Shown in pieces: positions 951 through 64,000 of a DNA stretch of 64,000 bases. The DNA is from Asterias amurensis (taxonomy: Eukaryota): the NCBI RefSeq assembly GCF_032118995.1, contig NC_092661.1, positions 19,526,621 to 19,590,620 on the forward strand, given 5' to 3'. The notes beneath the pieces are model-generated. The model was given only the letters and a program-made list of their open reading frames with translations. It did no database searches and was not told the origin of the DNA. The position numbers were made by a program, and so were the translations under genes. How positions within the stretch are numbered: the stretch's first letter is position 1; each line of letters opens with the position of its first letter.

Positions 951-1336
951 TAAAGACAGTGGACACTATTGGTAAATGTCAAAGACTAGCCTTCACAGTT
1001 GGTGTATCTCAACATATGCATAAAATAACAAACCTGTGAAAATTTGAGCTCAATTGGTCGTCGAATTTGCGAGATAATAATGAAAGAAAAAAACACCCTT
1101 GTCACACGAAGTTGTGTGCTTTCTGATGCTTGATTTCGAGACCTCAAATTCTAAACTTGAGGTCTCAAAATCAAATTTGTGGAAAATTACTTCTTTCTCG
1201 AAAACTACGTCACTTCAGAGGGAGCTGTTTCTCACAATGTTTTATACCATCTATCTCTCCCCATTACTTGTAATCAAGACAGATTTTATGATGATAAAAA
1301 TTTTGAGTAATAACCAATAGTGTCTACTGCCTTTAA
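951..1336 (+). mobile_element. 385-bp TTAA-flanked MITE (family M1), full copy
   Basis: TIR TTAAAG(A/G)CAGTGGACACTATTGGTAA...TTACCAATAGTGTC(T/C)ACTGCCTTTAA, with an internal perfect hairpin GATTTCGAGACCTCA...TGAGGTCTC(G/A)AAATC. Seven related copies lie in the window. Confidence 0.8.
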
Positions 1337-2585: not shown

Positions 2586-2880
2586 CCCATACACCGATGT
2601 GTGTTAGCACTGTATACTCAGTACTTTCCCGAGTCCTGTGAAAAAATCTCACAGGTATGTTACTCGGGTGGGATTCGAACCCACGACCCTTGCAATTCTA
2701 GAGCAGTGTCTTACCTACTAGACTACCGAGGTTGCCCGGCAGCTAGAGGCAGTTCGAATCCTATGTTTTGGCAGCGGGTACTGCAACGATATAATAGATG
2801 TTAAATTTGCATCGGGGATAAAGAATATTAATTTTGGTTTTTACCCATACACCGATGTGTGTTAGCACTGTATACTGTGA
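2586..2880 (-). mobile_element. tRNA-derived SINE family S1, about 1.3 tandem/rearranged units
   Basis: tRNA-like core GGGTTCGAATCCCACCCGAGTA (T-arm) and D-arm-like GTCTAGTAGGTAAGAC on the - strand. Its tail repeat TTTTACCCATACACCGATGTGTGTTAGCACTGTATACT occurs at both ends. Confidence 0.65.
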
Positions 2881-12588: not shown

Positions 12589-14349
12589 TTTATTAACCAA
12601 AAACTAAAACTGGTTGATCATATTTCGGTTTTTTTGTTGCCAAGATAAAAGGTTTAAATTTATTGGCGTGTATACCTTAATTATTCTGAATTTGGCTCCG
12701 ATTAAACACTTTGAATATTGGCCTTGCACAACTGTCCACGTTTACCCACGTCCATATTTATGATCACGTATTTTCAACTCGTTGTTGAAGTAAAAACACA
12801 AAAACAAAATCCTGAAATCTTATAAGTGCATGTTGATGTGAGCGCAGGTGTATGCTAAGTTGTATCGCCCATGGAGTGCCATAACTGATGTATTATTGAT
12901 ACGTTTTGCCTGCGATTCACACAATACATGGTGTGAATACCTGTAAGGTGTCAGTCTAAGGAGATTAAAATATGCATCTTGTCAGGCTTACTAGCAAAGG
13001 ACCATCAAGTTCTTGACCATTTGAAACAAGTTAATCTTGGATGGCGTGAAATGGTTTTCAAATGTAGGGTTATTGCAGTACGCGTACAACAATATCATGT
13101 ACTTCTTGGATTTAAATGACCAGAATATCAAACTTTCCAACGTGACTCTTATGTTGCACAGCGCCACTGACACCAATATCATTCTTTGCACAGTCTGTAA
13201 ATATTGATACATTTTCAAAGGTTGTGTTTTTGGTAGCTATAGTTTATTTAGCCTAAATTGTACATGGACAATATATATCGAGGACGAGAACGAGCCAGGC
13301 GGTCTTATATGCCACATCATCATTGCAGATTGTGTGCATGCACACTGCGAACAACTGCAGATGACATCTGTTCAACGCTAAATTCATTTTGCATCACCCA
13401 GACATAAGCCAATATTACAAAGCATAATTATGTTTTTATTAATTAGCCATAAAAGGGCCGTCTATTAGTCTCCTACAAGTCGTTTAGCTGTGAACCGCCT
13501 GTTTGAAATGCACGCATCGATGCGTAGTCTCCGAATCATTCATTACCTGAGTGATTTGTGTCCCCATCAGAAAACCTACCAGGAAGCCAATTGTACAGTA
13601 ATTGCGCCTTAATCAAATTGACTTCATTTTGGTACCGTGTGACAACTTAATGCGTGCCCGTCTGACAACTGCCGATCATGTAGAACGTCATGCGTAAATG
13701 AGAATACAGTGGACTATAGAGAGGCACGATACATCATTAGAATAACGCAGCCAAAATTGTTGGACACATCAGGAACATCAATTTGTTTGGGGAAAAAATA
13801 GAAGAAGTGAAGATGAGGTTGTTTACTCTTTGCACAATGACCCAAATAATAATGACCGCGTCTGGATATTATTATTACTGCATTGTTCTATATTCTGAAG
13901 GCGCTTGGTCAGAGAAACAAAATAATGTAATATTGATATAGTACAATGACCAGTCGATGGACAATTTAATAAAAACACATAAATTATGTTTTGACCATGG
14001 CGAGGGGAATGAGCAGTATGTTGATGCTCACTATAGGGAATGTAATTGTATTATTTTATTTATACCAATAATTTAAGTTTTCCAATCTTATCAACGCCAC
14101 GGGAAATGTTTTGTTCTACCTGCCCCTCCCAAGTTTGACAGATGAAACCAACAGAGGGCAGTATGATGACCTATTAAAAATTCTAACCGCAAGTTTAGTA
14201 ATAAAACCAAAACCAGGCATTAATTTTTAACAATAAAGTAGGCATACGTTGGTACTGTTTTTTCCAGCAGTACAGCCTCTTTACTTTAAATTCATACGGG
14301 ATACGTTCTTGCTTTAAATTATATCAAATTCCCACGGCTATTGTTTATT

Positions 14350-14880
14350 TAATTCATCGCCCCGTTGGGTCTATAGTGCAGCTGCTAAGGTGAACAATTG
14401 TGCACTTTGTGGTAAAAGCATGAAATTTGCTATGATGGTTGGTATTGGGCTAATTAACAATTTAAGACCGGGACCCACCTTGGGTCTCGCCTATTTAGGG
14501 GCGGAGCCTCATTTGCATAAAAGGGGGGTCTTTGATATAAATATTGGGCAAAATCATACTTAGAAATTTTTTTTTTGTTCTTTTGACCAGAAATATAAAC
14601 TTGAAAATCATAATTATAAGTGAGAACAAAAAATTAGTGGAAAAAATGCCCTTTTTGTGGGCGGAGTTTCAATATTTCTAAAAGTGGGCGTTTTTAAAAC
14701 AAAGTGTTATCTTCAGTGAACTATTACTGTTTTTTAATTTTTTTTTCAGCTGATTTATGTTATTTGAATAGAAATACTATACAAAACAACATTTTTTATA
14801 CATTAGTTTAAACAGTTTCTTTATTTCCCCCTCTTTTGTGGGCGGGGCCAGAGTAGTAAACGAGGGTTTGCTAAATTACA
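14350..14880. repeat. left inverted arm of a composite element (unique outer segment plus satellite-like units)
   Basis: The outer 120 bp (GTGCAGCTGCTAAGG...TGTGCACTTTGTGGTAAAAGCATGAAAT...GGGTCTCGCCTATTTAGGGGCGGAGCC) is the reverse complement of 18130-18260. This is followed by degenerate repeat units containing TGTGGGCGGAG. Confidence 0.7.
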
Positions 14881-15179
14881 CAAGTGTAATGATCACTAAG
14901 CTGTAGCATACTTGTCGGAATACTGAAATAGGTAACATGTACAGGGAAAAAGAAAAGTGGTGAGTTGGTATTTGATGAGGCCATTAGAGAGGCCATTGAA
15001 ATCTACCAGTCTGACCCAAGTTAATGGGGGTTTAGGAAATGTGCTGTGGATAGAGGGTCGATATCCATTGGTCAGGAAGAGTAGGAGCCAAATGTCACTT
15101 AGCTGGAGGCTAATGTTCTAAAGAAGGGTGTTGTGCTGGTAACTTCTTCTTATCGTGTTCACACACACTATATATTGTG

Positions 15180-16320
15180 TTTCAGCCAGAACTGGACACA
15201 GTTCCTAGCAAGAGCGTTGTACTCTGCAAGGTCCTCAGTTCTGTATTTCTGCTCCATAGTTTGTGGCTCTGTCTTACATATGCAGGTAACGTCTTCAGAG
15301 TCTTGATATCCCCACTTCTTGAGAGACACGTTGCACCGGCCAGTTGATGTTCTTAGTCTGTTGAGGCACTTCTATTCAGCCCAACCTGAGTCAGCATCAG
15401 GGGGGGGGGGGAGTTCTTCCGAAGCACTTATGTCCATGGATGTTCTAGGTGGAAGTTAACCAAGTCTCTCATGTCACATGGCAGTTCAAAGAGCCCCAGC
15501 TTCTGCACTTGGTTTGACTTTGTTGAGGAAGCTTTTCCTGGACCGAGTCTATTCTTAGCAGGTGTGTGGCTGAATTGAGGGTTTCGCTTGTGGTATGGCT
15601 ATACCAGAAAGTTTGTACAGACTATCAGTTGGTGTTGGTCTGAGGCATCCAGTGATGAGTCGCCATGTAGCATTGATGGCTAGATCAATTTTCTTAGCGT
15701 GGGTAGATCTTTCCCAGACTGGGCACGCATACTCTGCAGATGAATAACAAAGGGCTAAGGCTGTTGATCGAAGAGTGTCTGGACTGGCACTCCATCTTGT
15801 TCCAGTAAGTTTGTTGACAATGTTGTTTCTTGCACAGACTTTGGCTTTGGTCTTCGCAACATGAGTCTTAAAGGAGAGGCAGCGGTCTAGGGTGACACCT
15901 AGATACACTGTATGGTCACAGTTTTCAAGAAGAGCCCCAGACCAGGATTCTTTCAGTTGGCATTTGGCTTCTCGATTACAGAGATAAAAGGCTGAATGAG
16001 AGTGATGACTTCTGCAGCACTATAGTCAATTCGGTGGTCGGTTAAAGAATCCCTCGTTTTATGATGAAGTTTCTTGTTAGCGGAAGGTATATTGGCCTTA
16101 TGCCTGCTTGATGGAACATACACGGAAGAAAGTGAGTAGTGATATGTGGTTGACCTTGGGTATGGGAACATATAGTTAAGTTTGGGGCGGCTTGGTGGTG
16201 TTAATCTGGTTGAAACTGTAGCTGTCCATACGATTGCGGTGACCCTACAATTGTCTTTAAAACTCCTCTGCAGAAAGTGACTGGCAAAATTGGGACCAGA
16301 AACAATACGATCCACAATGT
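15180..16320 (-). mobile_element. degraded non-LTR retrotransposon (LINE) RT remnant inside the inverted-arm composite element
   Basis: The - strand ORF 15555-15908 encodes YLGVTLDRCLSFKTHVAKTKAKVCARNNIVNKLTGTRWSASPDTLRSTALALCYSSAEYACPVWE, the conserved block C-terminal to RT motif 7 in CR1/jockey-like LINEs. It is interrupted by stops and frameshifts. Confidence 0.6.
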
Positions 16321-17584
16321 CACTGGTAAATTCTTGGTAGCAAATGCCGAAACACTTTGCTCATCGGCGCTAGCTGGGGGCTGAATATTGTGATCAAGTT
16401 TAGAGAACCTCTCAAGCCTACTCGATCTTCAATTGAACAGCACCATGAGGACCATCGCTGGTGCTGTTAGCTGCACAAAGACTGACTGGCTACCAGTCCT
16501 GAGTAAGGCAAATTTCCCTATTCAGATGATCCAAAGAGAGTGTGCCATATCAGTGATGGTTCTCTAAAGCTAAAGCAGAAGAGCGGCGCACGCAGTGGCA
16601 AGGTCCAGACGGCACAAGTTCCTGATGAAAAAGAATCGCACCATCCAGTTCCCGTGGATAGACCTTCCCAATGGTAAAGTGTACCTCCTGAACCGGTTCC
16701 GCACCAACTCGTCACTCCAACTAGCCAATTCTCTTCACTCTGACTCAATTAATCAACTGCAGAGACAGCAAGGGTCAGTCGCACTACGATCTCCTGTGTC
16801 GACGTCCAATAGAGCTTTGTGGTCGATTTCACTAGGCCAGGCAGCTGTTTACCTCAAGATGATCTTGGACGGCCTCTAGATGTTTTCCAGCCAGGAGCTG
16901 GTGCTAGGCCTCCCCTGGAGTTACTGGCGATGCGAAGAGCCTTTTTAGCTGGGGTGTTGTCAGCCACGCGAGCGACATGACAAAAGAAAGCAGAACGGCG
17001 GCATTGAATTACTCAGACTGGCAAACCCACAACTCCGACAAAGGCTATCCTGTCCTATATATTGAACACCATAGACACAAGTTGTAGGAACCATGAACAA
17101 GACGGTGTGTTTAGATGCTAAGGTAATGAAAGAAGAACTGGTGTACAACGGTCAATGTTGGTTATTTTTCATTGGAAACCGTGGTGGAGGCTGTTGTCTT
17201 GTTTCTTTGCGGTGGGGATCAGGCATAGACAGCTTTTGCCAGACTGCCCTTGTCCCATGGTGAACACGGTGAACTTGATGCTTGGTTGTTGCTGGTTGAG
17301 GTATCTGTATAGCATTTTGGGGGCTGATGGGTAGAGTCGGGCCACATCATCAGTTCCAATGAGCTCTTGTGGGAATTTGGAGAGGCAAAAACTGTGTAAG
17401 AATATTCAACATTAAGGCATCACTGCTGGTTTAATTTGTTTAGCACCCAATCGTTTACTCTCAAGAGGGAGCAAAGAAGTGCTGTGAGTAAAATGTAAAC
17501 ACTGTTACTGCAACTTAAAATGTAGAAATATTGTAATTAAATGTCTATACATGTATTTACACGGTTTTGCATGTACAGTACAAC

Positions 17585-18260
17585 AACCAAGGGGCTAGAA
17601 ATGGTTTTATTTTATCCCCACTTTCAAAAAATGTGACTCCCCCCACACAAGGGGGGGGGGAAGACAGTTATTAATTTTTAAATAACTATTTTACTGTTAT
17701 TATGTATTTTACTATAAAAGCTATGAATGAGCAGAGAAAAGCAAATTTAGTCAAAATTAACTTATTACATTTTTTCTGCCCCCACTTTCTTAAAAATACG
17801 ACTCCGCCCACTAAAGGGGCAGTTATCAAGACAGTTATTAATTTTTGAATAATTATTGAACTGTCATCATGTGTTTTAGTCTAAAAGAAAGAGCAGAGAA
17901 AAGTAAATTTAGTCAAAATTAACATTATTACATTTTTACCCCCTTCTTTCTTAAAAATATGACTCCGCCCACAAAATGGGCAGAATTCAAGACAGTTATT
18001 AATTTCAAATAATTATTGAACTGTTGTCATGTATTTTAGTCTAAAAAAATTAGCAGAAATGTTTTTCAAATAGTCAAAACTGACATATTAAATTTTTTAC
18101 CCCCCACTTTCTTAAAACGTAGCTCCACCCCTAAAATGGGTGAGATCCAAGATGGGTCCAAGTCTCAAAATGATCTTTAGGGTGTATATAACGACTGTAG
18201 GAAGTTTCATGCTTTTACCACAAAGTGCACAATTTGTCCACATAATGGGCCTTAGCAGCT
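17585..18260. repeat. right inverted arm: 3.5 tandem ~163-bp satellite units plus a unique outer segment
   Basis: Units begin at about 17585, 17765, 17928 and 18093. Each contains CTTTCTTAAAAAT(A/G)(C/T)GACTCCGCCCAC..GACAGTTATTAATTT. The outer part is inverted relative to 14350-14470. Confidence 0.75.
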
Positions 18261-20304
18261 GGACTACTATGATATCCCACTGATAACTGAGGTTTTATGT
18301 GCATTGTTCAAAATCAAAGGCGTGAATGGGAAGGACAAGGTAATTTGTTTAGGAGCTGTGGTTGAACTTTGCATCACTGTGTCATATTAACGATGTCAGG
18401 GACGGTTCTGCCACCCCCCCCCCCCTCTCCCTCAGGATTTATTAACGACCGTGGTTTTATTTTGTACTCAAAACAAACCCGCTCAAAAACTCGAAACATT
18501 TATTGATTCTCACTTAGTTTTTAAAGACATTTTTGTGCAAATAAAGCCTTTAATTTGAGTTGTTTTCCCCTTCCATTTAAAGTTTATTTTGTCTACTGTT
18601 TTAAATTTACGCACATAGACTTCATTCTGCTGACAGGAGTGTAGTTGGCAGTGACATGAAATTAGGACCCCGGGGTCCAATTTCGTGCTGCTGCCAATTC
18701 CAAGTCACCTAACGACCATTGCTTTCCTCTCAACAGAGTTATCCCCGCATAATAGCTAGCTACGTACATATGGAATGCTTAAAGCTATGCGAGCAGAGAC
18801 TTTCAAATGTTAGTCAGTACAAAAACGTAATATTTCCACCCTGCTGTACATATTAGTCAAGAACGTTTCTGTGAGACGTTCTCCGTCGTTGTTTTTTTTT
18901 TAGGTGGGGGGCATACATATTAAATGCAATGTTGGAGACCAACACTGCTTGTATGAATAAAAGGCTACACTTCAGGCACGAGGCTAAAAAAAATAGACCT
19001 CCGTGTTACAGCAACTTAGTACTAATATAGGCTAGAGGGAAGCTGGCAATGTCTCTGGCGGTACTCACAGATAGACAATTCAGGCAACTCAGTCCGCAAA
19101 ACAAGTCAGACCAGAGTGAGAGGGGCAATCTCCTACTCATTAGGGCCTAGCCTAGCATCCAGCCTAAGTAACATAAGGCCTATTGTTACAATGGCCGATC
19201 AAGCCGATGGCTGTTTGACAGTTCAAAAGATAAAGTAGCTCCAGAATTACCACAAAACAACAACATTTCGACCGTGAAGCGTATTTATTATGTGTTTATT
19301 GAAATCTTTAAATATGCCTTATTAGTGCAAACTCTCAAACTTTGAACTCATAGGTGTGCCCTCAAGACAAATTTAAATTTGCGCGCGCATTTGCAGACGT
19401 TCACAAACACACAAAAGTGTCTGCAGACGTATATATATCGAGATAATATACACCATTACAACAAAGTACAAGACTAAGCCAAGAGATCAAATGTATTTTT
19501 TACCTGTTGTACACACATTTTACTCACTATTGTTATTCTTCTTGTATGTAATCATGATGTTTAAACCTCTTGGTAGAATTTCACTTCATCATATGCTGCA
19601 AGCAAAACATTCTTTTTCACCAACGAACTGCTGATTCTTGTATTTTTAACGGTGGACTTACATAGCGCCCTCTACGAGTAAAGTAAGCTCAACAGTTAGA
19701 TATGTATGTTTTAAAAGGTAACTGTTAGCTGCGATCTTGCTTTTAATTACCTACGTAAACCTACGTTGATGACATCTAGAGGATCGCGGTACTAATTACC
19801 TTTTAGTAGCAGCAAGTGGAATAGATTCTGCCAACGGTGTCTCAAATGGCGCCCTCTTGAGTAAACGTTGAGCCACGTTATAACTGTTGTATCTCTACGC
19901 CAGTGAATCGAAAGAAAATCAAAGTTAAATGACTCATTGTGACAAATCAGCAGATATTTTTTGTAAAGATATAAAACATGATATTTTTAAAGCATTACGT
20001 ACATTGGCAACTATTAAATGAAATCAACCACTACCGGACTACACTTTTTCAACCATGCATGGATCACTTCCTAAAATTAGTGGTGATGAGGCGATCAGAA
20101 ACGCCATAAAGACCATAGACTTGTTTTCGTACGAAACAGTTTGATTATCTTCTTAAAATTTCTCTAAAATGAGGTATGTGCTCATTAAAATGTCACCAAA
20201 TGATACGTTTTATGTGTGGTTGTGTAATTGTCAATCGTCACAGGTTTCTCGTCGCTTACTTTTGCCATTCAGCTTTCGCTGACTGATCTGAACACCAACT
20301 GGCA

Positions 20305-21228: not shown

Positions 21229-21836
21229 GTACGGTTTGTTTATTACACTTTCTAGTTCCAGGATGGTGACAAGCAGAAGTTACCAGGTTTTGGTCTTTCA
21301 CAGATTTGTGGTGTAGAAAAAAGGTGTATTCCTGATGAATAAAGAAGCCCTACTACACTACCCCTCAAAAAGAAATCAAATGAGTAAATGTTGGAGCTAA
21401 TGTACCCAAAGCCTCATCCTCCTGAAGTTGTAACTGTGTACTTTATATTAATGATAGTCACTCCAACACTACTCTAAGCAAATGAATAAAATACTTGTTA
21501 ATACTAGTTGATTTGCAACCAATTGTTTTCTTACAATTAAATTGTAAACTTTTGATCACATTATCATAATTCTTGAAAACTTTCCAGACCTGTAATATTC
21601 AAAAGGTGACGGATTTGAGTTTCCACCGAGAATTTACAGTTATATACATTTTCAAGTATTGTAATCAAAAGTTTACCATAAAATTGTATCCAATTTATAA
21701 CAACTCAGATGAAGTTTCAATTTTTTTTCCTCATTTTAAAGCGGCAAGGAACTGTTTGGGTTGATTTGGAAAAAACCCTGATCAAACCAAACTTTAAAAT
21801 GGTTTTTAAAAGCATCACTGTTATTTATTATTGCAG

Positions 21837-22384
21837 AGCGGACACAAACTCGGCCTATTCTGGCATCACAGGCACAAATGTTGTACTGAGACATGATGGA
21901 CTGGTGCAGATGAAAACCAAACCTTACATACAACGTAGCACATGCCACATCAAGATTCGCTTCTTTCCTTTCGATGAACAGAAATGCCAACTGAAATTTG
22001 GGCTGTGGACATATGACTGGAATCATGTAGATCTACAAAACTCAACTGCAGGACCAGACAAATCGCAGTATTTAGAGAATGAGCAATGGGACTTGATGTA
22101 TTCATGTTTCAAGAGGAATCTTGAGAGCTACATATGTTGCCCAACTAAGTATGTGGATGTGACGCTTTTCGTTGGCATACGCAGGAAGCCTCTGTACTAC
22201 ATGTACAAGTTGGTGATGCCGATTGTTTTACTCTCTGCATTGTCTATGGTGGGTTTCCTGATGCCTTATAATGTGGGTGTGGTCAAGGCAAACCTCAGCA
22301 TCACTCTTATCTTGTCAATGACTGTCTTCCTACTTCTGGTGGCTGAGACTATTCCTAAGACATCAGAAGGACTTCCACTTATCA
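21837..22384 (+). CDS. nAChR alpha-like subunit, exon 3 (Cys-loop, vicinal CC, M1, M2)
   Basis: Acceptor tattgcAG. Contains the Cys-loop CHIKIRFFPFDEQKC, the alpha-subunit vicinal cysteines YICCPTKYVDVT, M1 RRKPLYYMYKLVMPIVLLSALSMVGFLMP and M2 ANLSITLILSMTVFLLLVAETIP. Donor GTAAGT at 22385. Confidence 0.8.
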
Positions 22385-22790
22385 GTAAGTATTCGTCTCG
22401 TTTGGATTCATTGGAGATGTCTCAGACATTTTGTACTTGTAATGTCACAGTAACATTACAACGCACTAAGTTCACAGTCCTTTTTAACAATCAAACCCCT
22501 CAGGTGAATACAGTTTATTAGCGTTTTGTCCCCCGAGAGATAACCTTACAGAAACACTTAACAATCATTTTTTCTGCGCCTCGGAATAGGGTCTTGTACA
22601 CTAGATAGATGGCGCATTATAAATGCATTATTATTATTATTATCATTCCTAAACCTTTGATAGCTGAAGTGTGACCTTGCAGGAACAATCATGTTGCAGC
22701 TGTGTTCCTTTCACTCATCCTCCACCTCACAATCTAATATGTTCCCATCACATTGACATTTTAATCTTATTTGCACATCATCAACTACAG

Positions 22791-23346: not shown

Positions 23347-23758
23347 TTTTTATTGGTCCTACCATGGAGGAAATTCAGCTTGAATACATGCAATTTGAAC
23401 CTGACATTAATCACAAATTTGACAAGTTCAACGACTACACATTGTGATCATTGGTATATTGGAAATATTTTCATAATCATAGTGTACAAGTCTACTTCGG
23501 AATACAACATTCATTTCATTCTCAGAGATGTCAACATTAATTGCATCTTGCAATCAATGAGATTTTGTGTAGCAATCAGGGAGATATTGATGCTTCAACA
23601 TAACAGGGAAAACATTCCCATATCAGGGAGGATTTTCATAAGATAAGTTCATTTCCAAAGTACTCTCTGGGCGAATTGGCTGATCTGTATACACTGCAGA
23701 AATGGCTTAACATTTTGAATGATAAAAACTTACCTCATTTCATTTGCTACTTGCTCAG

Positions 23759-24149
23759 GTATGGCACATCATATACACCGCTAATTCAAGACTCGTCAAG
23801 GATGAATAATGATGGCATGCAAGGAGGCTGCAGTAATGGCCACAATGCACAAGCTGAGTTAGACCACTTTGTTGAGAATCTTGGAGAATCTGATAACATA
23901 AGACTAACCAAGATGGAATCCAACGTCTATGGAATCCTCAGACAGATCCGTTCAGTGCAGAAAAAGAGTGACCGCACAGGCAGAGTGCATAGAGAATGGG
24001 CCTTGGTGGCCACAGTAACTGACCGCTTGCTGTTCTACATCTATGCCTGCTTTACAGTTGCAATGTCTGTCATAATCTTACTAGTCAACCCAACTTTAGA
24101 CGTCCATGATGGAGCTATATGCGGTAACACAGAAAGTGAGGCAGCATAA
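23759..24149 (+). CDS. nAChR alpha-like subunit, exon 5 (cytoplasmic loop, M4, stop)
   Basis: Acceptor ttgctCAG. M4-like REWALVATVTDRLLFYIYACFTVAMSVIILLV, then TAA. Total CDS 1614 nt (537 aa). The acceptor choice is the least certain junction of this gene. Confidence 0.55.
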
Positions 24150-28746: not shown

Positions 28747-29131
28747 TTAAAGGCAGTTGACACTATTGGTAATAACTCAAAATATTATTAGCATAAAACC
28801 TTTCTCGGTGACGAGTAATGGGGTGAGGTTGGTGGTATAAAACATTGTGAGAAACAGCTCTCTCTGAAGTGAGGTAGTTTTTGAGAAAGAAGTAGTTTTC
28901 CACGAATTTGATTTCAAGACCTCAGATTTAGAACTTGAGGTCTCAAAATCAACCATCTAAACGCACACAACTTCATGTGACTTGGGTGTTTTTTTCTTTC
29001 ATTTTTATCTCGCAAGTTCAACGACCGATTGAGCTCAAAGTTTCACAGGTTTGTTATTTTATGCATATGTTGAGATACACCAACTGTGAAGGCTAGTCTT
29101 ATACAATTACCAATAGTGTCCACTGCCTTTA
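28747..29131 (-). mobile_element. MITE family M1, full copy (in RPL24 intron 4)
   Basis: Same TIRs and central hairpin as the other M1 copies; inverted orientation. Confidence 0.8.
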
Positions 29132-34170: not shown

Positions 34171-34179
34171 TATTTGTAG

Positions 34180-34222
34180 GGCGGGGGCGGGGGCGGGGGC
34201 GGGGGCGGGGGCGGGGGGGGGG
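34180..34222. repeat. (GGGGCG)n microsatellite followed by a G-run
   Basis: GGGCGGGGGCGGGGGCGGGGGCGGGGGCGGGGGCGGGGGGGGGG, about 340 bp upstream of the RPL24 start. Confidence 0.9.
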
Positions 34223-45574: not shown

Positions 45575-45960
45575 TTAAAGACATTGGACACTATTGGTAA
45601 TTGTCAAGGACCAGTCTTCTCACTTGTTGTATCTCAACATATGCATAAAATAACCAACCTGTGAAAATTTGAGCTCAATTGGTCGTCGAAGTTGTGAGAT
45701 AACTATGAAAGAAAAAACACCCTTGTCACACGAAGTTGTGTGCTTTCAGATGCTTGATTTCGAGACCTCAAATTCTAAACTTGAGGTCTCGAAATCAAAT
45801 TCATGGAAAACTACTTCTTTCTCGAAAACTACTTCACTTCAGAGGGAGCCGTTTCTCACAATGTTTTATACTATCAACCTCTCCCCGTTACTCGTTACCA
45901 AGTGAGGTTTTATGCTGCTAATTATTTTGAGTAATTACCAATAGTGTCCACTGCCTTTAA
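45575..45960 (+). mobile_element. MITE family M1, full copy
   Basis: Both TIRs with flanking TTAA. Confidence 0.8.
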
Positions 45961-57359: not shown

Positions 57360-57749
57360 TTAAAGGCAGTGGACACTATTGGTAATTACTCAAATAATTA
57401 TTAGCATAAAACCTTACTTGGTAATGAGTAATAGGGAGCTGTTGATAGTACAAAACATTGTGAGAAATGGCTCCCTCTGAAGTAACATAGTTTTTAGGTG
57501 AAAGAAGTAATCTTCCACGAATTTGATTTCGAGACCTCAGAACTATATTTTGGGGTCTCAAAATCAAACATCTGAAAGCACACAACTTCAGTCGACATGG
57601 GTGTTTTTCCTTTCATTATTATCTCGCAACTTCAACGACCAATTGAGCTCAACTTTTCACAGGTTTGTTATTTTATGCAAATGTTGAGATACAGCAAGTG
57701 AGAAGACTGGTCTTTGACAATTACCAATACTGTCCAGCATCAGTCTTAA
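57360..57749 (-). mobile_element. MITE family M1, full copy (REV3L intron)
   Basis: TIRs plus central hairpin. Confidence 0.8.
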
Positions 57750-59591: not shown

Positions 59592-59972
59592 TTAAAGGCA
59601 GTGGACACTATTGGTAATTGTCAAAGACTAGCCTTCACAGTTGTTGTATCTCAACATAAGCAGAAAATAAACCTGTGAAATTTTGAGCTCAATCGGTCAT
59701 CGAAGTTGCGAGATAATAATGAAAGAAAAATAACCCTTCTCACACGAAGTTGTGTGCGTTTAGATGGTTGATTTCGAGACCTCAAGTTCTAAATCTGAGG
59801 TCTCGAAATCAAATTCGTGGAAAATTACTTCTTTCACAAAAACTATGGCACTTCAGAGGGAGCCATTTTTCACAATGTTTTTACCATCAACCTCTCCCCA
59901 TTACTCGTCACCAAGAAAGGTTTTATGCTAATAATAATTTTGAGTAATTACCAATAGTGTCCACTGCCTTTA
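59592..59972 (+). mobile_element. MITE family M1, full copy (REV3L intron)
   Basis: TIRs plus central hairpin; flanked by TTAA. Confidence 0.8.
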
Positions 59973-61068: not shown

Positions 61069-61521
61069 CTGATGGTCAAATGTTAATTCAAATTACAATC
61101 AATGTATGATAAGAAATAAACATTTATAGAACATGATCAAGTACTTGTTTATCCACAGTTCTGCCAATTGAAGATAAAAATTTCATCACCTCAAATAACT
61201 TATGCTGATTCCTGGTTTAACTTTCGCATCACATTCTTTTTTTAGTTTATGCTTCCTAAAAACAAGGCCATGTCCGAATTAGCGGCTACGGCTATGGCTA
61301 GATTTCTGTGACATCACGCATTGAAGAATAGGCCGTCCTAAGAAACACACTAAGCATCAGTCAGAGCCAGAGCTAAAGCCTCCAATTTGGATACAACCTT
61401 AGGCTGGTTTTTTTTATCGCAGAGAAATATGCGCAAAACTTAAATTACAGATATTTTGTTATACAATTAGAAAAAAGAAACAATATTTGTAAACTAAATT
61501 CTTAAAAATGAACCACATTAC

Positions 61522-62332
61522 CTCTCTTGGTGTGAAGAGCAATGACTGTCTCATACTAGATGAAGAAGATTGTCTCTCACAAGATGGTCCAGCTGACATT
61601 GGGTCACGCGGCTTCTTCCATCCACTAATAGGGGTGACAGGAAGAGGAGTACCTTTTGACTGTGTGTGAACGCGTAGAGGAGTACTGTGCTGTGGTTGGC
61701 TGCTCTCCCTCCCAACCAATGGTGTATCCCGTTGGGATAAGGAGCTGTTTGTATTCCAGGGGGTTGGACTCAAACGAGATGGGCCTTCCATTGGTGAGGA
61801 AACTACTTTGGATGATTGTGTGCCGTTATTAATCCAGAGGGGTAGATTAAACTTTGGAGTTTGCATTTGGGACATTGATGGTTTGTTCTGTGAGTCGTTT
61901 GCCTTTGTGTTTAGAATGGCACTGTGCACGTCTTCCTTCATGGTTGCTGCCAAATGTTCCTTATCATCTTTAGGCTGAGAGGTTTTGGTCACAGTTTGAT
62001 TAGTTTTATCCTTGTCTTTGTCATTTTTGTCTTCCTCATCTTCTTTACATTTATCAGTCTCATTGTTCTTATCATCCAACCACTCCTGAACCTGTTTAAC
62101 AGAGGGAGGGGACCTACAAGGTGTAATCACAGCATCCACATCTCCCACCAGAGCCGCTTTTAATCCACATTCAGGGGCAATGTTGCTAGGCAACAATAAG
62201 GGGTGTGGACTCAAGGCCATCATGTTGGCTTGCCATTGGTTGAGACCTGTTTGGGAAAGTTTACTTTCAGCTTCAGGTAGAGAGGATGGCAGATTGGATT
62301 GCAAATGACCTTCGTCGTGAACACCTGGTTTA
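61522..62332 (-). CDS. REV3L: REV3L exon (811 nt, S/K/D-rich low-complexity region)
   Basis: Open frame (S)KPGVHDEGHLQSNLP...SSSMRQSLLFTPRE bounded by acceptor tttttcttcAG and donor GTAATG. In phase with the upstream giant exon across a 224-bp intron. Confidence 0.75.
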
Positions 62333-62556
62333 CTGAAGAAAAATATAAGTGTGTATATCAAAATAAAGTCTGCTTCAATACATCATTTCATGTTGACTTT
62401 GAATAATACCCACGTAGACTGATAGTAAAACAACTTCTTGCTCACATCTTATTAGGTTTGATTGCAACCAGAACTAAGAATTATAACTCTACCTTTATAA
62501 AAAATAATTGGGCAATTATTCCAGAGATACTTATAAGATTATTACAACTCACATAC

Positions 62557-64000
62557 CTGGACTGATGGACATCATTTGGATTCCCGCAAAATGCTTTCTT
62601 GTGTCGTAGCTGAGGGAGTCCATACTCTTGCAGCGATGCTTGTATATCATCAGCACTTGGAGGAGGATGAAGTGGTGTCCACACCTTGCTAGGCTTATCT
62701 GATAAACTCTCATCCTCCTTTGTTGTTGTAGTATTTCTGAGAATTGATGGGACTCTTGTTGAGGTTGTTGGAGGTGATTCAGATGTTGATTGGAGAGGAT
62801 CTTGTACTGATTGTGAGATGAGTTGAAGACTGTTAGTGGTCAGGTCTTCAATCATCTCTGTGCTGATTCCATCTTGCTCCTGTGAGCCACTTTGTTGACT
62901 TCCTTTACAATATACTAGAGCCTCATCTTTATCACAAGGTTCATCTGATAACTTATCCACAAGGCTTTGGGATTGATTCATGGTTGAAGTTTGTCTAGCA
63001 GAAAGACAATCTTCCTGAGATGAAACTGAGTGTTCATGGGGTATAGATTTTTCAGGATCAGTACAGTCGGACACAGACATTGGGTTTGAGGAACCTGATT
63101 CAGATGAGTCTGGACACACACCCCCTTCCTGTGATGTATCAATTTCCATTGGTTCCACTTCATCTGACTCCCACTCTCCACTGTCTTCTCTTGCACTAAG
63201 CTCCTCCGAGGATGGAACCTGGTGATCTCTGGGTTTAAGAACTAGGTTCAAGGGTTCCTCTTCTAATTCCTTGGAGGTGCTAACGCTGGAATCTTCAAGA
63301 TTTGATGCTTTCATATTTGAGTTGTCATGGTAGGAATCAGGGTTTGGCACATAGGTATTTGTTCTGTCATAGTTTGAAGATTCTTCATTGAATTTATCTT
63401 TGTAGTTGATTCTCAACAGTCCTTCAGCAATGTCTCGATCAATCTTACTCTTTGTGTTTGTTGAAAGCTTTACTTTACAATGTAAAGTGGGGCTTTTACC
63501 AGGAGTTGATGGAATCGTCTTCCCATCAGCATCTGACTGAGAATCTGTGATTGAATTTGACTGGCTACTGATGTACTGCGTACCATGTGGTGAGGGGGTC
63601 TCTGGGCAAACAAGCTGAGAGAAAGATTCATTATTGTCACTTAGAGTATCCTTTGAGTTCAGTTTCCCACAAGGTTTCCCTTTTGAAAATGATGAAGTGC
63701 TTTCACTAGAGCTGCTCCAAGATGATGCACTTGGCATCTCGCTTACTCTATTCTTTTGAAACTTACTATTTTCAGAACAATCAGAGTCTGTGTTTCTACA
63801 TGTGCTTTCCTGATGCATCTTTTTATAAGACACATCAGTTATGTTTAGAATGCTTGAGGAGGCTTGACTTGTGTCACTTTCAATCTCTGTGTGTCTTGTC
63901 TCATCTACCTGAGTTCTCACTGACTCACGCTGTCTTGATTGTCTTCCTGGAGTAAAGAGACTACCACTTGAAGGTTCAAAAACTTCCCTGGTTGGTGAGA
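62557..64000 (-). CDS. REV3L: REV3L giant Ser-rich exon (partial; continues beyond the window end)
   Basis: Uninterrupted - strand frame from the window edge to the donor AG|GTATGT at 62556/62555. Ser/Asp/Glu-rich low-complexity sequence, like the ~4 kb exon characteristic of REV3L. The ORF-track M is a GTG artefact, and the frame stays open to position 64000. Confidence 0.8.

What the first reader, a model, noticed from the sequence alone, without database searches (positions are those of the whole stretch)
14350..18260. 3.9-kb composite element: long inverted arms made of satellite units enclosing a dead LINE
The outer ~120 bp at 14350-14470 and 18130-18260 are reverse complements. Internal to each lies an array of ~163-bp units (3.5 on the right, about 2 degenerate on the left), each carrying a CCGCCC/GGGCGG box. 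The 2.7-kb interior holds only a decayed CR1/jockey-like RT remnant on the - strand. Long TIRs built from tandem repeats are the signature of foldback-type DNA transposons (Drosophila FB, sea-urchin TU elements), not of LINEs. So this is either a foldback transposon that captured a LINE fragment, or a LINE inserted into a foldback.
Basis: seen in the sequence. Interest (0 to 1): 0.6.

Follow-up and report, generated by a model that had tools for sequence, protein, structure and literature searches.

The report
Foldback-like transposon carrying two dead LINEs
The 3.9-kb structure is one copy of a dispersed, non-coding cut-and-paste-type mobile element with imperfect inverted ends and repeated GC-box units, and the two dead LINE fragments inside it are a fixed part of the family; it is an ordinary kind of genomic parasite.

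Summary
The inverted heads are 14374-14507 and 18122-18266, about 80% alike, and share an identical 30-mer. A ~21-nt GC-box motif recurs every ~160 bp, three times on the left and four on the right. Only the right side is a true 161-bp tandem array.

The interior holds two 5'-truncated LINE tails lying head-to-head (15144-16013 minus, 16178-~17136 plus). No RT domain is detectable.

The key result is a second complete copy. A 4.5-kb marine-metagenome contig (L015) matches 14374-18266 end to end at 91-96%, with both arms and both LINE pieces. Homology stops exactly at the two termini and the flanks are unrelated. A third contig (L016) carries the left arm and both LINE pieces up to its end. L017 extends about 110 bp past the left arm. 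At least eight loci share the same left terminus.

So this is one non-autonomous TIR element family with foldback-like architecture. Its cargo is constant: the LINEs entered the master copy before it amplified.

Flanking duplications are 2-3 bp (CTA/CTA here). That excludes the 8-10-bp duplications of the Tetris foldback (read here) and of hAT, Mutator, P and classical FB (from memory).

No transposase partner was found and the superfamily is unresolved. It is ordinary biology and probably a new member of a known kind.

The parts
14371..14373 (.). Putative 3-bp target-site duplication CTA, left copy. The alternative reading is a TA duplication at 14374-14375.
   Evidence: CTA lies directly outside both termini of the window copy. 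In L015, TTA lies on both sides, displaced by 1 nt on the left. No 4-10-bp duplication fits either copy.
14374..14507 (+). Left head (terminal inverted repeat, final domain). It starts TAGTGCAGCTG.
   Evidence: Reverse complement of 18122-18266. It is 94-98% identical, from exactly this base, at eight or more other loci with unrelated flanks.
14396..14425 (+). Invariant 30-mer AATTGTGCACTTTGTGGTAAAAGCATGAAA, a candidate transposase-binding site.
   Evidence: Identical in both heads, in all family copies except one substitution in L002, and in three divergent head families on WLWD01/WLWI01 contigs.
14486..14510 (+). GC-box 1 of the left arm (CGCCTATTTAGGGGCGGAGCC), about 124 bp from the terminus.
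   Evidence: A box sits 121-124 bp from the terminus in the left arm here and in the related heads of L004, L005 and L008 (133 bp in the right arm, which has a 10-bp insertion).
14647..14667 (+). GC-box 2 of the left arm (TGCCCTTTTTGTGGGCGGAGT).
   Evidence: 95% complementary to 17962-17982 and 88% complementary to 17801-17824. Present at the same spacing in L002, L003, L015, L016 and L017.
14829..14849 (+). GC-box 3 of the left arm (TCTTTTGTGGGCGGGGCC).
   Evidence: Conserved in L015, L016 and L017.
14871..15143 (.). Inner, non-LINE segment of the element.
   Evidence: Conserved at 92-96% in L015 and L016 (14885-15144); L017's contig ends at 14983. L015 and L016 have an extra 337-339 bp at 14885-14890.
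15144..16013 (-). LINE fragment A: 5'-truncated ORF2 C-terminal tail plus 3' UTR, ending in the clade-typical ...ACACGATAAGAAGAA.
   Evidence: tblastn gives 70-78% aa identity for the best alignments (E to 1e-64) to LINE tail proteins, one labelled 'RNA-directed DNA polymerase...' by UniRef. The DNA and the 3' end align to LINEs in L012-L014; L012 carries Exo_endo_phos_2 and RVT_1. No RVT domain here.
16014..16177 (.). Spacer between the two LINE 5' truncation points.
   Evidence: No similarity found. Part of the contiguous 92% alignment to L015.
16178..17136 (+). LINE fragment B: a second, more divergent and decayed 5'-truncated LINE tail on the opposite strand. The 3' end near 17136 is inferred.
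   Evidence: tblastn 16178-16558 at 31-44% aa to the same tail domain. Only weak DNA similarity to fragment A (64% over 166 nt, z about 5.8). The end is inferred from ...ATGAAAGAAGAA at 17125-17136.
17137..17609 (.). Inner, non-LINE segment of the right side.
   Evidence: Inside the contiguous alignment to L015. L016 covers it as far as 17450, where its contig ends.
17610..18121 (-). Right subterminal array: about 3.3 units of 161 bp, each with a GC box (CTCCGCCC at 17802-17809 and 17963-17970; degenerate at 17636-17654).
   Evidence: TRF, the repeat finder families D1-D5 and self-blast at 80%. L015 has one unit fewer.
18122..18266 (-). Right head (terminal inverted repeat). It ends ...CAGCTGGACTA and contains box 1 (CTCCACCCC, 18123-18131) and the 30-mer (18205-18234).
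   Evidence: It is 97% identical to the right end of L015, where homology also stops at this base.
18267..18269 (.). Putative 3-bp target-site duplication CTA, right copy. The alternative reading is TA at 18265-18266.

Best explanation
Window 14374-18266 is one copy of a dispersed, non-autonomous DNA transposon family of 3.9-4.2 kb with foldback-like architecture.

Layout. Each end has a ~135-bp head. The two heads are imperfect inverted repeats of each other (~80%). Both carry the terminal TAGTSCAGCTG, an invariant 30-mer about 22-32 bp in, and a GC-box hairpin at about +125 to +135. Inside each head the GC-box motif recurs every ~160 bp. On the right this is a true 161-bp tandem array whose unit number differs between copies. 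The middle has no coding capacity. It contains two 5'-truncated LINE tails that retrotransposed into the master copy before it amplified, so every sufficiently long copy carries them.

Shown: dispersal with exact shared termini; a constant interior; asymmetric arms as a property of the family; variation in unit number; only a 2-3-bp duplication at T/A-rich targets.

Inferred: the element moves by cut-and-paste, using a transposase supplied in trans. That enzyme would recognise the terminal 11 nt and the invariant 30-mer, with the GC boxes as possible accessory sites. The array would grow and shrink by unequal exchange or slippage. The superfamily is unresolved. The short duplication points away from hAT, Mutator and P, and towards a TA or 3-bp-TSD group (Tc1/mariner-like, PIF/Harbinger-like or CMC-like).
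For: Complete second copy: L015 176-4341 matches window 14374-18266 (93.5% left arm, 95.8% for 14885-15144, 92.1% for 15144-17956, 91.1% right arm). Homology ends exactly at both termini and the flanks are unrelated.

Other copies: L016 matches 14372-17450, up to the end of its contig, and contains both LINE pieces. L017 matches 14372-14983 at 96%. L001/L010, L002, L003 and L011 share the left head from the same base, each with a different flank.

Termini: TAGTSCAGCKG occurs only twice in the window, at the two termini, against 0.05 expected.

Heads: they are better conserved between copies (98.5% and 97.2%) than the rest of the left arm (93.3%). Left versus right head identity is 81% in the window and 84% in L015, so the asymmetry predates amplification.

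Unit number: four boxes in the right arm here, three in L015.

Target duplication: CTA|...|CTA in the window. L015 sits in a CORE/MIR-like SINE at CC|TTAA|GC, with TTA on both sides.

Pairing: single strands of the arms would pair, with the outer 150 nt at dG -91 against -40 for a shuffled partner.

LINE A has its own conserved 3' end at 15144, as expected of a retrotransposed insert.
Against: No transposase or autonomous relative was found. The only transposase near a related head (a hAT in L008) lacks a partner head and would predict 8-bp duplications.

Only two copies have both ends, so the TSD length (2 or 3 bp, or none) is not settled. L015 fits 3 bp only with a 1-nt slip.

All other copies come from marine metagenome contigs of unidentified origin. 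The copy number in the source genome is unknown.

Related heads on WLWD01/WLWI01 contigs and the copy in L001 are solo or truncated. This shows that many members are not intact TIR pairs.

The binding-site roles of the 30-mer and the GC boxes are inference only. Covariation support for the hairpin is weak.
Confidence: 0.78

Rival explanations
1. Classical foldback transposon (Drosophila FB, sea-urchin TU or Tetris type). The arms would be long, near-identical inverted arrays of tandem repeats around a variable loop, so this copy happened to capture or receive a LINE.
For: The layout of head, tandem units, inner domain and middle domain matches the foldback scheme (PMC4079207). The box also lies at the inner edge of the head. 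Tetris is similar: its TIR-220 repeats share 37 bp with the final domain. Unit number varies between copies. The arms can pair as single strands.
Against: The cargo is the same in three copies. Arm-to-arm homology is only ~135 bp at ~80% plus the 21-nt boxes, and inter-box segments are unrelated between the arms. No 8-10-bp duplication is present in either complete copy, whereas Tetris has 8-10 bp (PMC4079207).
Confidence: 0.1
2. Two independent single-ended elements of related families lie by chance in opposite orientation. Alternatively, the arms are the 3' UTR ends of the two LINEs, which point outward towards them.
For: The left head is 94-96% identical to other loci, but the right head only 77%. 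No inverted partner was found in L001, L004, L007 or L008. Each LINE fragment has its 3' end towards the nearer arm.
Against: L015 carries both heads, both LINE fragments and everything between as one unit at another locus. LINE A ends at a conserved LINE 3' end at 15144, 770 bp from the terminus. Its relatives in L012-L014 have no head sequence downstream. No LINE tail lies next to heads in L001-L011.
Confidence: 0.03
3. A local inverted duplication or a segmentally duplicated low-copy repeat, not a transposable unit.
For: No other copy exists in the 64-kb window. The interior is identical between copies.
Against: Eight or more loci with unrelated flanks begin at the same nucleotide. Two loci also end at the same nucleotide. 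Targets are short T/A-rich sites, one of them inside a SINE whose paralog is uninterrupted.
Confidence: 0.03
4. A Helitron/Helentron-type non-autonomous element (HINE- or pearl-like) carrying a central array of ~160-bp satellite-like monomers and moved by rolling-circle transposition.
For: Short arrays of 140-180-bp monomers flanked by conserved 50-100-bp segments are typical of Cg_HINE elements. Some of those families share flanks but not monomers (PMC7492417).
Against: HINEs have one central array between unlike left and right flanks, with 11-12-bp subTIRs, a microsatellite and a 3' palindrome. Here there are two arrays in inverted orientation, each behind a ~135-bp inverted head. There is no 5'-TC or CTRR-like end (sequence; Helitron end rule from memory). 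No microsatellite module was seen.
Confidence: 0.05

Closest known systems
Tetris, the foldback-like non-autonomous transposon of Drosophila virilis (PMC4079207)
   Same: The modular ends are alike: a final domain, ~200-bp-class internal tandem repeats that share a motif with the final domain, an inner domain and a non-coding middle. The repeat number varies. No autonomous partner is known.
   Different: Tetris has 8-10-bp TSDs (suggesting Mutator), a variable middle domain and many rearranged forms. Here the duplications are 2-3 bp, the middle is constant with two LINE fragments, and the two arms are only ~80% alike in the head and unrelated between boxes.
Galileo, a P-superfamily element with long, internally repetitive TIRs (PMC3573991, PMC3688188)
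   Same: Long ends contain tandem repeats that carry extra copies of a short GC-containing motif. In Galileo these are THAP-domain binding sites. The box core here, TGTGGGCG, resembles the THAP-type TxxGGGC pattern; that resemblance is from memory and is a lead only.
   Different: Galileo encodes, or derives from, a P-type transposase. From memory it makes 7-bp TSDs. Here there is no coding capacity and the duplications are 2-3 bp.
Drosophila FB and sea-urchin TU foldback elements (cited in PMC4079207; details from memory)
   Same: Inverted arms with internal tandem repeats and a non-coding or variable centre.
   Different: FB and TU arms consist almost wholly of short tandem repeats and are highly complementary, with 8-9-bp TSDs (from memory). 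Neither feature is met here.
IR/DR-type Tc1/mariner elements (Sleeping Beauty-type fish Tc1-like elements, Tc3); from memory
   Same: TA-containing targets. The inverted ends are long (200-460 bp) and conserved mainly at repeated binding sites. Spacing between sites in SB is about 165 bp.
   Different: The repeated motif here is not at the very terminus. The termini do not start with CAGT. TA versus 3 bp is unresolved, and no Tc1-type transposase relative was found.
Cg_HINE / pearl tandem-repeat-carrying Helentron derivatives of bivalves (PMC7492417)
   Same: Dispersed short arrays (2-5 monomers) of 140-180-bp satellite-like units carried inside a non-autonomous mobile element. Related elements keep their flanks but swap monomers.
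   Different: A HINE has a single central array, unlike ends, subTIRs of 11-12 bp, a microsatellite and a 3' palindrome. None of these were seen here.

Membership tests
TIR (cut-and-paste) DNA transposon, non-autonomous | Terminal inverted repeats at both ends of the dispersed unit | tested here: met
   Heads 14374-14507 and 18122-18266 (E 1e-14). The same pair bounds the L015 copy.
TIR (cut-and-paste) DNA transposon, non-autonomous | Multiple copies with identical termini and unrelated flanks | tested here: met
   Eight or more left ends and two right ends.
TIR (cut-and-paste) DNA transposon, non-autonomous | Target-site duplication of fixed length | tested here: inconclusive
   The window has CTA/CTA (or TA/TA). 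L015 has TTA(T)/TTA (or TA/TA). Only two complete copies are available.
TIR (cut-and-paste) DNA transposon, non-autonomous | An autonomous relative encoding a transposase with the same termini | tested here: not met
   None was found in the window or in 17 loci. The hAT gene in L008 lies near a solo, divergent head with no partner. The source genome could not be searched.
Foldback elements (FB / TU / Tetris type) | Long arms composed largely of tandem repeats and highly complementary to each other | tested here: not met
   Only the right arm has a true array. Inter-box segments of the two arms are not significantly similar. The heads are ~80% alike.
Foldback elements (FB / TU / Tetris type) | Middle domain variable between copies | tested here: not met
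   The same middle is present in the window, L015 and L016 at 92-94%.
Foldback elements (FB / TU / Tetris type) | 8-10-bp target-site duplication (Tetris: PMC4079207; FB 9 bp from memory) | tested here: not met
   The flanks are TGGGTCTA / CTATGATA in the window and GTCCTTAT / TTAAGGCT in L015.
hAT superfamily | 8-bp TSD; short TIRs fitting YARNG (rule from memory) | tested here: not met
   TAGTG fits YARNG, but neither complete copy has an 8-bp duplication.
Tc1/mariner superfamily | TA target duplicated at both ends | tested here: inconclusive
   TA directly precedes GTSCAGC at all 13 ends. It cannot be told apart from TA being part of the TIR. The SINE empty-site comparison for L015 does not fit TA adjacent to GTGCAG.
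Tc1/mariner superfamily | DD(E/D) Tc1/mariner transposase in autonomous members | not testable with these tools
   The source genome is not available, and no related coding copy lies in the fetched loci.
PIF/Harbinger superfamily | 3-bp TSD, usually TTA/TAA (rule from memory) | tested here: inconclusive
   The three bases outside TAGT... are TTA or TAA at 5 of 11 loci, and ATA, CTA, AAA or AGA at the rest (plus TAT at L015, where TTA is displaced by 1 nt). The window has CTA on both sides.
Helitron/Helentron derivatives (HINE) | Unlike ends; 11-12-bp subTIRs with adjacent IR; microsatellite; 3' palindrome; single central array (PMC7492417) | tested here: not met
   Two inverted arrays sit behind ~135-bp inverted heads. 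No microsatellite module was seen. The GCAGCTGC palindrome at the terminus is not conserved in related heads.
APE-type LINE (the two internal fragments) | Homology to LINE ORF2 and a family-typical 3' end | tested here: met
   Fragment A: E to 1e-64, 70-78% aa for the best alignments, and a conserved 3' end ACACGATAAGAAGAA. Relative L012 has Exo_endo_phos_2 and RVT_1. Fragment B: E to 8e-9. No RT domain is retained in either. Assignment to the CR1 or jockey clade was not tested; only a UniRef label supports it.

The most novel reading that the evidence does not exclude
The heads may define an unrecognised, widely distributed group of DNA transposons that target TA or 3-bp sites. The heads consist of the terminal TAGTSCAGCKG, an invariant 30-34-mer and a GC-box hairpin at about +122. 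In this lineage the group would have evolved foldback architecture independently of Mutator- and P-type foldbacks. The binding-motif-bearing unit has nucleosome-scale length (~160 bp) and could seed satellite DNA. The identical 30-mer in very different head families on contigs of another organism (L004-L009) would then reflect a conserved transposase-DNA interface or horizontal spread.
Probability: 0.12. Interest if true: 0.45.

Novelty: new member of a known kind. Interest (0 to 1): 0.22.

Why it matters
The main value is for annotation. The 3.9 kb should be masked as one repeat family, not as a foldback plus a LINE. The two LINE pieces should not be counted as independent LINE insertions, because they hitch-hiked and were multiplied by a DNA transposon.

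The family is also a small, clean example of three things:
- foldback-like architecture combined with short target duplications, which supports the idea that the architecture arises in several superfamilies;
- ~160-bp motif-bearing units inside transposon ends that vary in number between copies, a proposed route to satellite DNA;
- a terminal motif kept invariant while the rest of the ends diverge.

None of this is surprising to a transposon specialist.

Tried and rejected
1. LINE 3'-UTR hypothesis. I proposed that the arms were the 3' tails of the two outward-pointing LINEs. Relatives of LINE A end at ACACGATAAGAAGAA (window 15144) and have no head sequence downstream. L015 then showed a single unit.

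2. Two independent single-ended elements. I favoured this for a while. The left head is 95% identical to other loci but the right only 77%, and L001, L004, L007 and L008 have no partner head. Searches refuted it.

3. hAT membership. This was suggested by the hAT transposase 1.4 kb from a head in L008. That locus has no partner terminus and no copy has an 8-bp TSD.

4. Structured RNA or tRNA/SINE origin of the head. There is no Rfam hit at E <= 1 and no tRNA. The consensus fold is weak, at -6.8 kcal/mol with one covarying pair.

5. Ancient inverted duplication of a LINE-plus-arm block. LINE A and LINE B are only 64% alike over 166 nt, and their similarity to the same reference proteins is very different.

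6. A third terminus-like match at 16008-16030. It is not beyond chance: the 8-mer occurs 4 times in the window.

7. Searches that found nothing:
- Pfam on all six frames of the interior.
- The 27-mer in viral and prokaryotic genome collections.
- Sequence strings and WLWD accessions in the paper library.
- The right-unit ORF against 1.8 billion protein representatives, which gave only a chance hit.
- Paralogous empty sites for the window flanks.

8. Organism identification. The best named relative of the nicotinic-receptor exon is Saccoglossus at 47%. The named LINE hits are teleosts at 72-73%. The source remains unidentified.


Full report
**1. What is in the sequence**

The outer segments are true reverse complements. 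blastn aligns 14390-14507 with 18241-18122 (76.9% over 121 bp, E 1e-14) and 14374-14390 with 18266-18250. A global alignment of the two heads gives 81% identity. They share a perfect 30-mer, AATTGTGCACTTTGTGGTAAAAGCATGAAA, at 14396-14425 and 18205-18234. The terminal 11-mer TAGTSCAGCKG occurs only twice in the 64-kb window, at the two ends, against 0.05 expected.

On the right there is a real tandem array: period 161, TRF score 556, units 80-89% alike.

A ~21-nt motif with a GGGCGG core lies at 14498, 14659 and 14840 on the plus strand. It lies at 18131, 17970 and 17809, plus a degenerate copy at 17636-17654, on the minus strand. Its distances from the termini are similar on the two sides. The first box lies about 124 bp in on the left and about 135 bp in on the right. 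The next two follow at 160 and 181 bp on the left, and at 161 and 161 bp on the right.

On the left, however, the segments between boxes are not significantly similar to each other or to the right units. So "arms made of satellite units" is true for the right arm only. The left arm has the box at satellite-like spacing.

No other copy of any of this lies in the window.

**2. The interior**

Pfam finds no reverse-transcriptase domain in any of the six frames of 14850-17650.

A protein search with the 112-aa open frame at 15573-15908 (minus) found 136 relatives. One is labelled by UniRef as an RNA-directed DNA polymerase. Mapping those proteins back onto the window shows two LINE tails, not one. 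The first is 15261-16013 on the minus strand (70-78% aa identity for the best alignments). The second is 16178-16558 on the plus strand (31-44%), covering the same domain.

DNA alignment with full LINEs in L012-L014 places the 3' end of fragment A at 15144, after a conserved ...ACACGATAAGAAGAA. L012 carries Exo_endo_phos_2 and RVT_1. A similar ...ATGAAAGAAGAA at 17125-17136 probably marks the end of fragment B; this is inferred.

The two fragments are only weakly alike at the DNA level (64% over 166 nt). They therefore come from different LINE families. Both are 5'-truncated and lie head-to-head, 165 bp apart.

**3. Is it mobile?**

No eukaryotic genome database was available. I therefore used a spurious open frame that runs through the left head as a protein query. 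It found five predicted "proteins" at 88-98% identity in ENA marine metagenomes. Their cluster mates added four more.

The contigs show the left head beginning at exactly the same nucleotide at eight distinct loci, counting the window: window, L001/L010, L002, L003, L011, L015, L016 and L017. Each has different flanking DNA.

An exact-match scan of JGI metagenome contigs with the 27-mer core found three further loci on WLWD01/WLWI01 contigs (L004/L009, L005-L007, L008). There the terminal 11-mer, the 30-34-mer and a GC box at +121 to +123 are conserved. Everything else differs.

**4. The decisive copy**

L015 is a 4,487-bp scaffold from the SOLA time series. It aligns with the window from 14374 to 18266 and not one base further:
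- left arm, 93.5%;
- 14885-15144, 95.8%;
- 15144-17956, including both LINE fragments, 92.1%;
- right arm, 91.1%.

Its flanks are unrelated to those of the window.

L016 (3,894 bp) aligns from 14372 to 17450, where its contig ends. It contains both LINE pieces. L017 matches 14372-14983 at 96%.

The whole 3.9 kb is therefore one repeat family. Its arms were already asymmetric when it amplified: left versus right head identity is 84% in L015 and 81% here. The LINE fragments are part of its consensus.

Differences between copies are of the expected kind. L015 and L016 have 337-339 bp extra at 14885-14890. L015 has one 161-bp unit fewer in the right array. The heads are the best-conserved parts (98.5% and 97.2%, against 93.3% for the rest of the left arm). 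That fits constraint on the sequences needed for movement, though the sample is small.

**5. Ideas I had to drop**

Before I favoured two other readings. One was that the arms were the 3' UTRs of the two outward-pointing LINEs. The other was that they were two unrelated single-ended elements. My reasons were that the left head is 95% like other loci but the right only 77%, and that L001, L004, L007 and L008 have no partner head. Both readings are refuted by L015. The first is also refuted by the LINE relatives, which end at 15144 and have no head downstream.

A hAT assignment, prompted by a hAT transposase 1.4 kb from a solo head in L008, fails on the target duplication.

**6. Target duplication and class**

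In the window, CTA lies directly outside both termini.

In L015 the element sits in a CORE/MIR-like SINE. An uninterrupted paralog of that SINE in L001 reads CCTTAAGC. In L015, TTA is present on both sides, displaced by one T on the left.

TA also directly precedes GTSCAGC at all 13 ends examined. A 2-bp TA duplication therefore cannot be excluded. No duplication of 4-10 bp fits either copy.

This rules out the 8-10-bp class reported for Tetris and suggested there to be Mutator-like (PMC4079207). From my knowledge of the superfamilies, it also rules out hAT, P and classical FB. The candidates left are a TA-type or 3-bp-type superfamily, and I could not decide between them.

No autonomous copy was found.

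**7. Mechanism**

Shown: dispersal as a unit with fixed ends; a constant interior; short T/A-rich targets; variation in unit number.

Inferred: cut-and-paste movement driven in trans by a transposase that recognises the terminal 11 nt and the invariant 30-mer. The GC boxes, which are small hairpins or palindromes, may be accessory binding sites, as proposed for the repeats in Galileo ends (PMC3688188; discussed in PMC4079207). The array would change by unequal exchange.

The two LINE tails entered the master copy by retrotransposition and have since been copied passively.

**8. Comparison with known elements**

The layout of final domain, tandem repeats that share a motif with the final domain, inner domain and non-coding middle is that of foldback-like elements such as Tetris. 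That paper notes that foldback structure may arise independently in different transposon lineages.

Three defining tests for classical foldback membership fail here: near-identical repeat-built arms, a variable middle, and 8-10-bp TSDs.

HINE or pearl elements also carry 140-180-bp monomers, but they have a different end structure.

I could not compare the consensus with Dfam or Repbase. "New member of a known kind" is therefore my best estimate rather than a demonstrated fact.

**9. Verdict**

Its interpretation is right in outline (a mobile, inverted-end element with LINE debris). It is wrong in the specifics (not a classical foldback, cargo not variable, two LINE fragments). Interest is low to moderate.

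The only unexplained points worth a note are these:
- the 30-mer that stays invariant across very different heads, including those on contigs of another organism;
- the ~160-bp phasing of the GC box.

Noticed in passing
window 21709-22521 (+) and 23676-24149 (+): Large exons of a nicotinic-receptor-type Cys-loop channel, with the Cys loop, a CC pair and TM1-TM3, then TM4. A 99%-identical ORF exists in an ENA marine metagenome. The best named relative is Saccoglossus 'alpha-10-like' at only 47%, so the source organism stays unidentified.
   Followed up: partly
window 969-1100, 28984-29113, 45594-45724, 57599-57727, 59611-59738: Five copies of an old (~75-77%) ~135-bp dispersed repeat. It also occurs in the flank of L016 and in L001, which links those metagenome contigs to the window's organism or a relative.
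   Followed up: no
window 2659-2732 (-): tRNA-Ser (AGA) gene predicted by ARAGORN.
   Followed up: no
window 34179-34215: (GGGGGC)n microsatellite, the only other cluster of GGGCGG-type matches in the window.
   Followed up: no
window 61459-63920 (-): Two long open frames (300 and 479 aa), serine-rich and of low complexity. They are probably one large exon of a nuclear protein.
   Followed up: no
L001 8216-9616: A 1.4-kb element with perfect 49-bp terminal inverted repeats (CTTAGGCGCGCGGTCC...). It is inserted about 282 bp inside a truncated copy of the head, where box 2 would lie.
   Followed up: no
L008 3158-6780: A solo, divergent head lies 1.4 kb upstream of a hAT transposase gene (DUF4371 plus Dimer_Tnp_hAT). 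No partner head lies within 11.5 kb, so the two are probably only neighbours.
   Followed up: partly
L014 6920-8739: About 38 tandem copies of the last 45-48 bp of a LINE related to fragment A. This is a LINE 3' end expanded into a minisatellite.
   Followed up: no
L015 691-1028 and L016 960-1299 (window 14885-14890): A 337-339-bp segment present in two copies of the family and absent from the window and L017. Whether it is an insertion or a deletion was not resolved.
   Followed up: partly
L004-L009 (WLWD01/WLWI01 contigs): Three head families keep the terminal 11-mer, the identical 30-34-mer and a GC box at +121 to +123, but share only 70-240 bp otherwise. All are solo. L005, L006 and L007 are 99.4% identical redundant contigs, as are L004 and L009.
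   Followed up: partly
window 14318-14563 (+) and 18112-18270 (-): Both heads are open in the same frame across the invariant 30-mer (peptide NCALCGKSMK). Gene callers have predicted 58-166-aa 'proteins' from it in metagenomes. Nucleotide-level invariance argues that it is not coding.
   Followed up: partly
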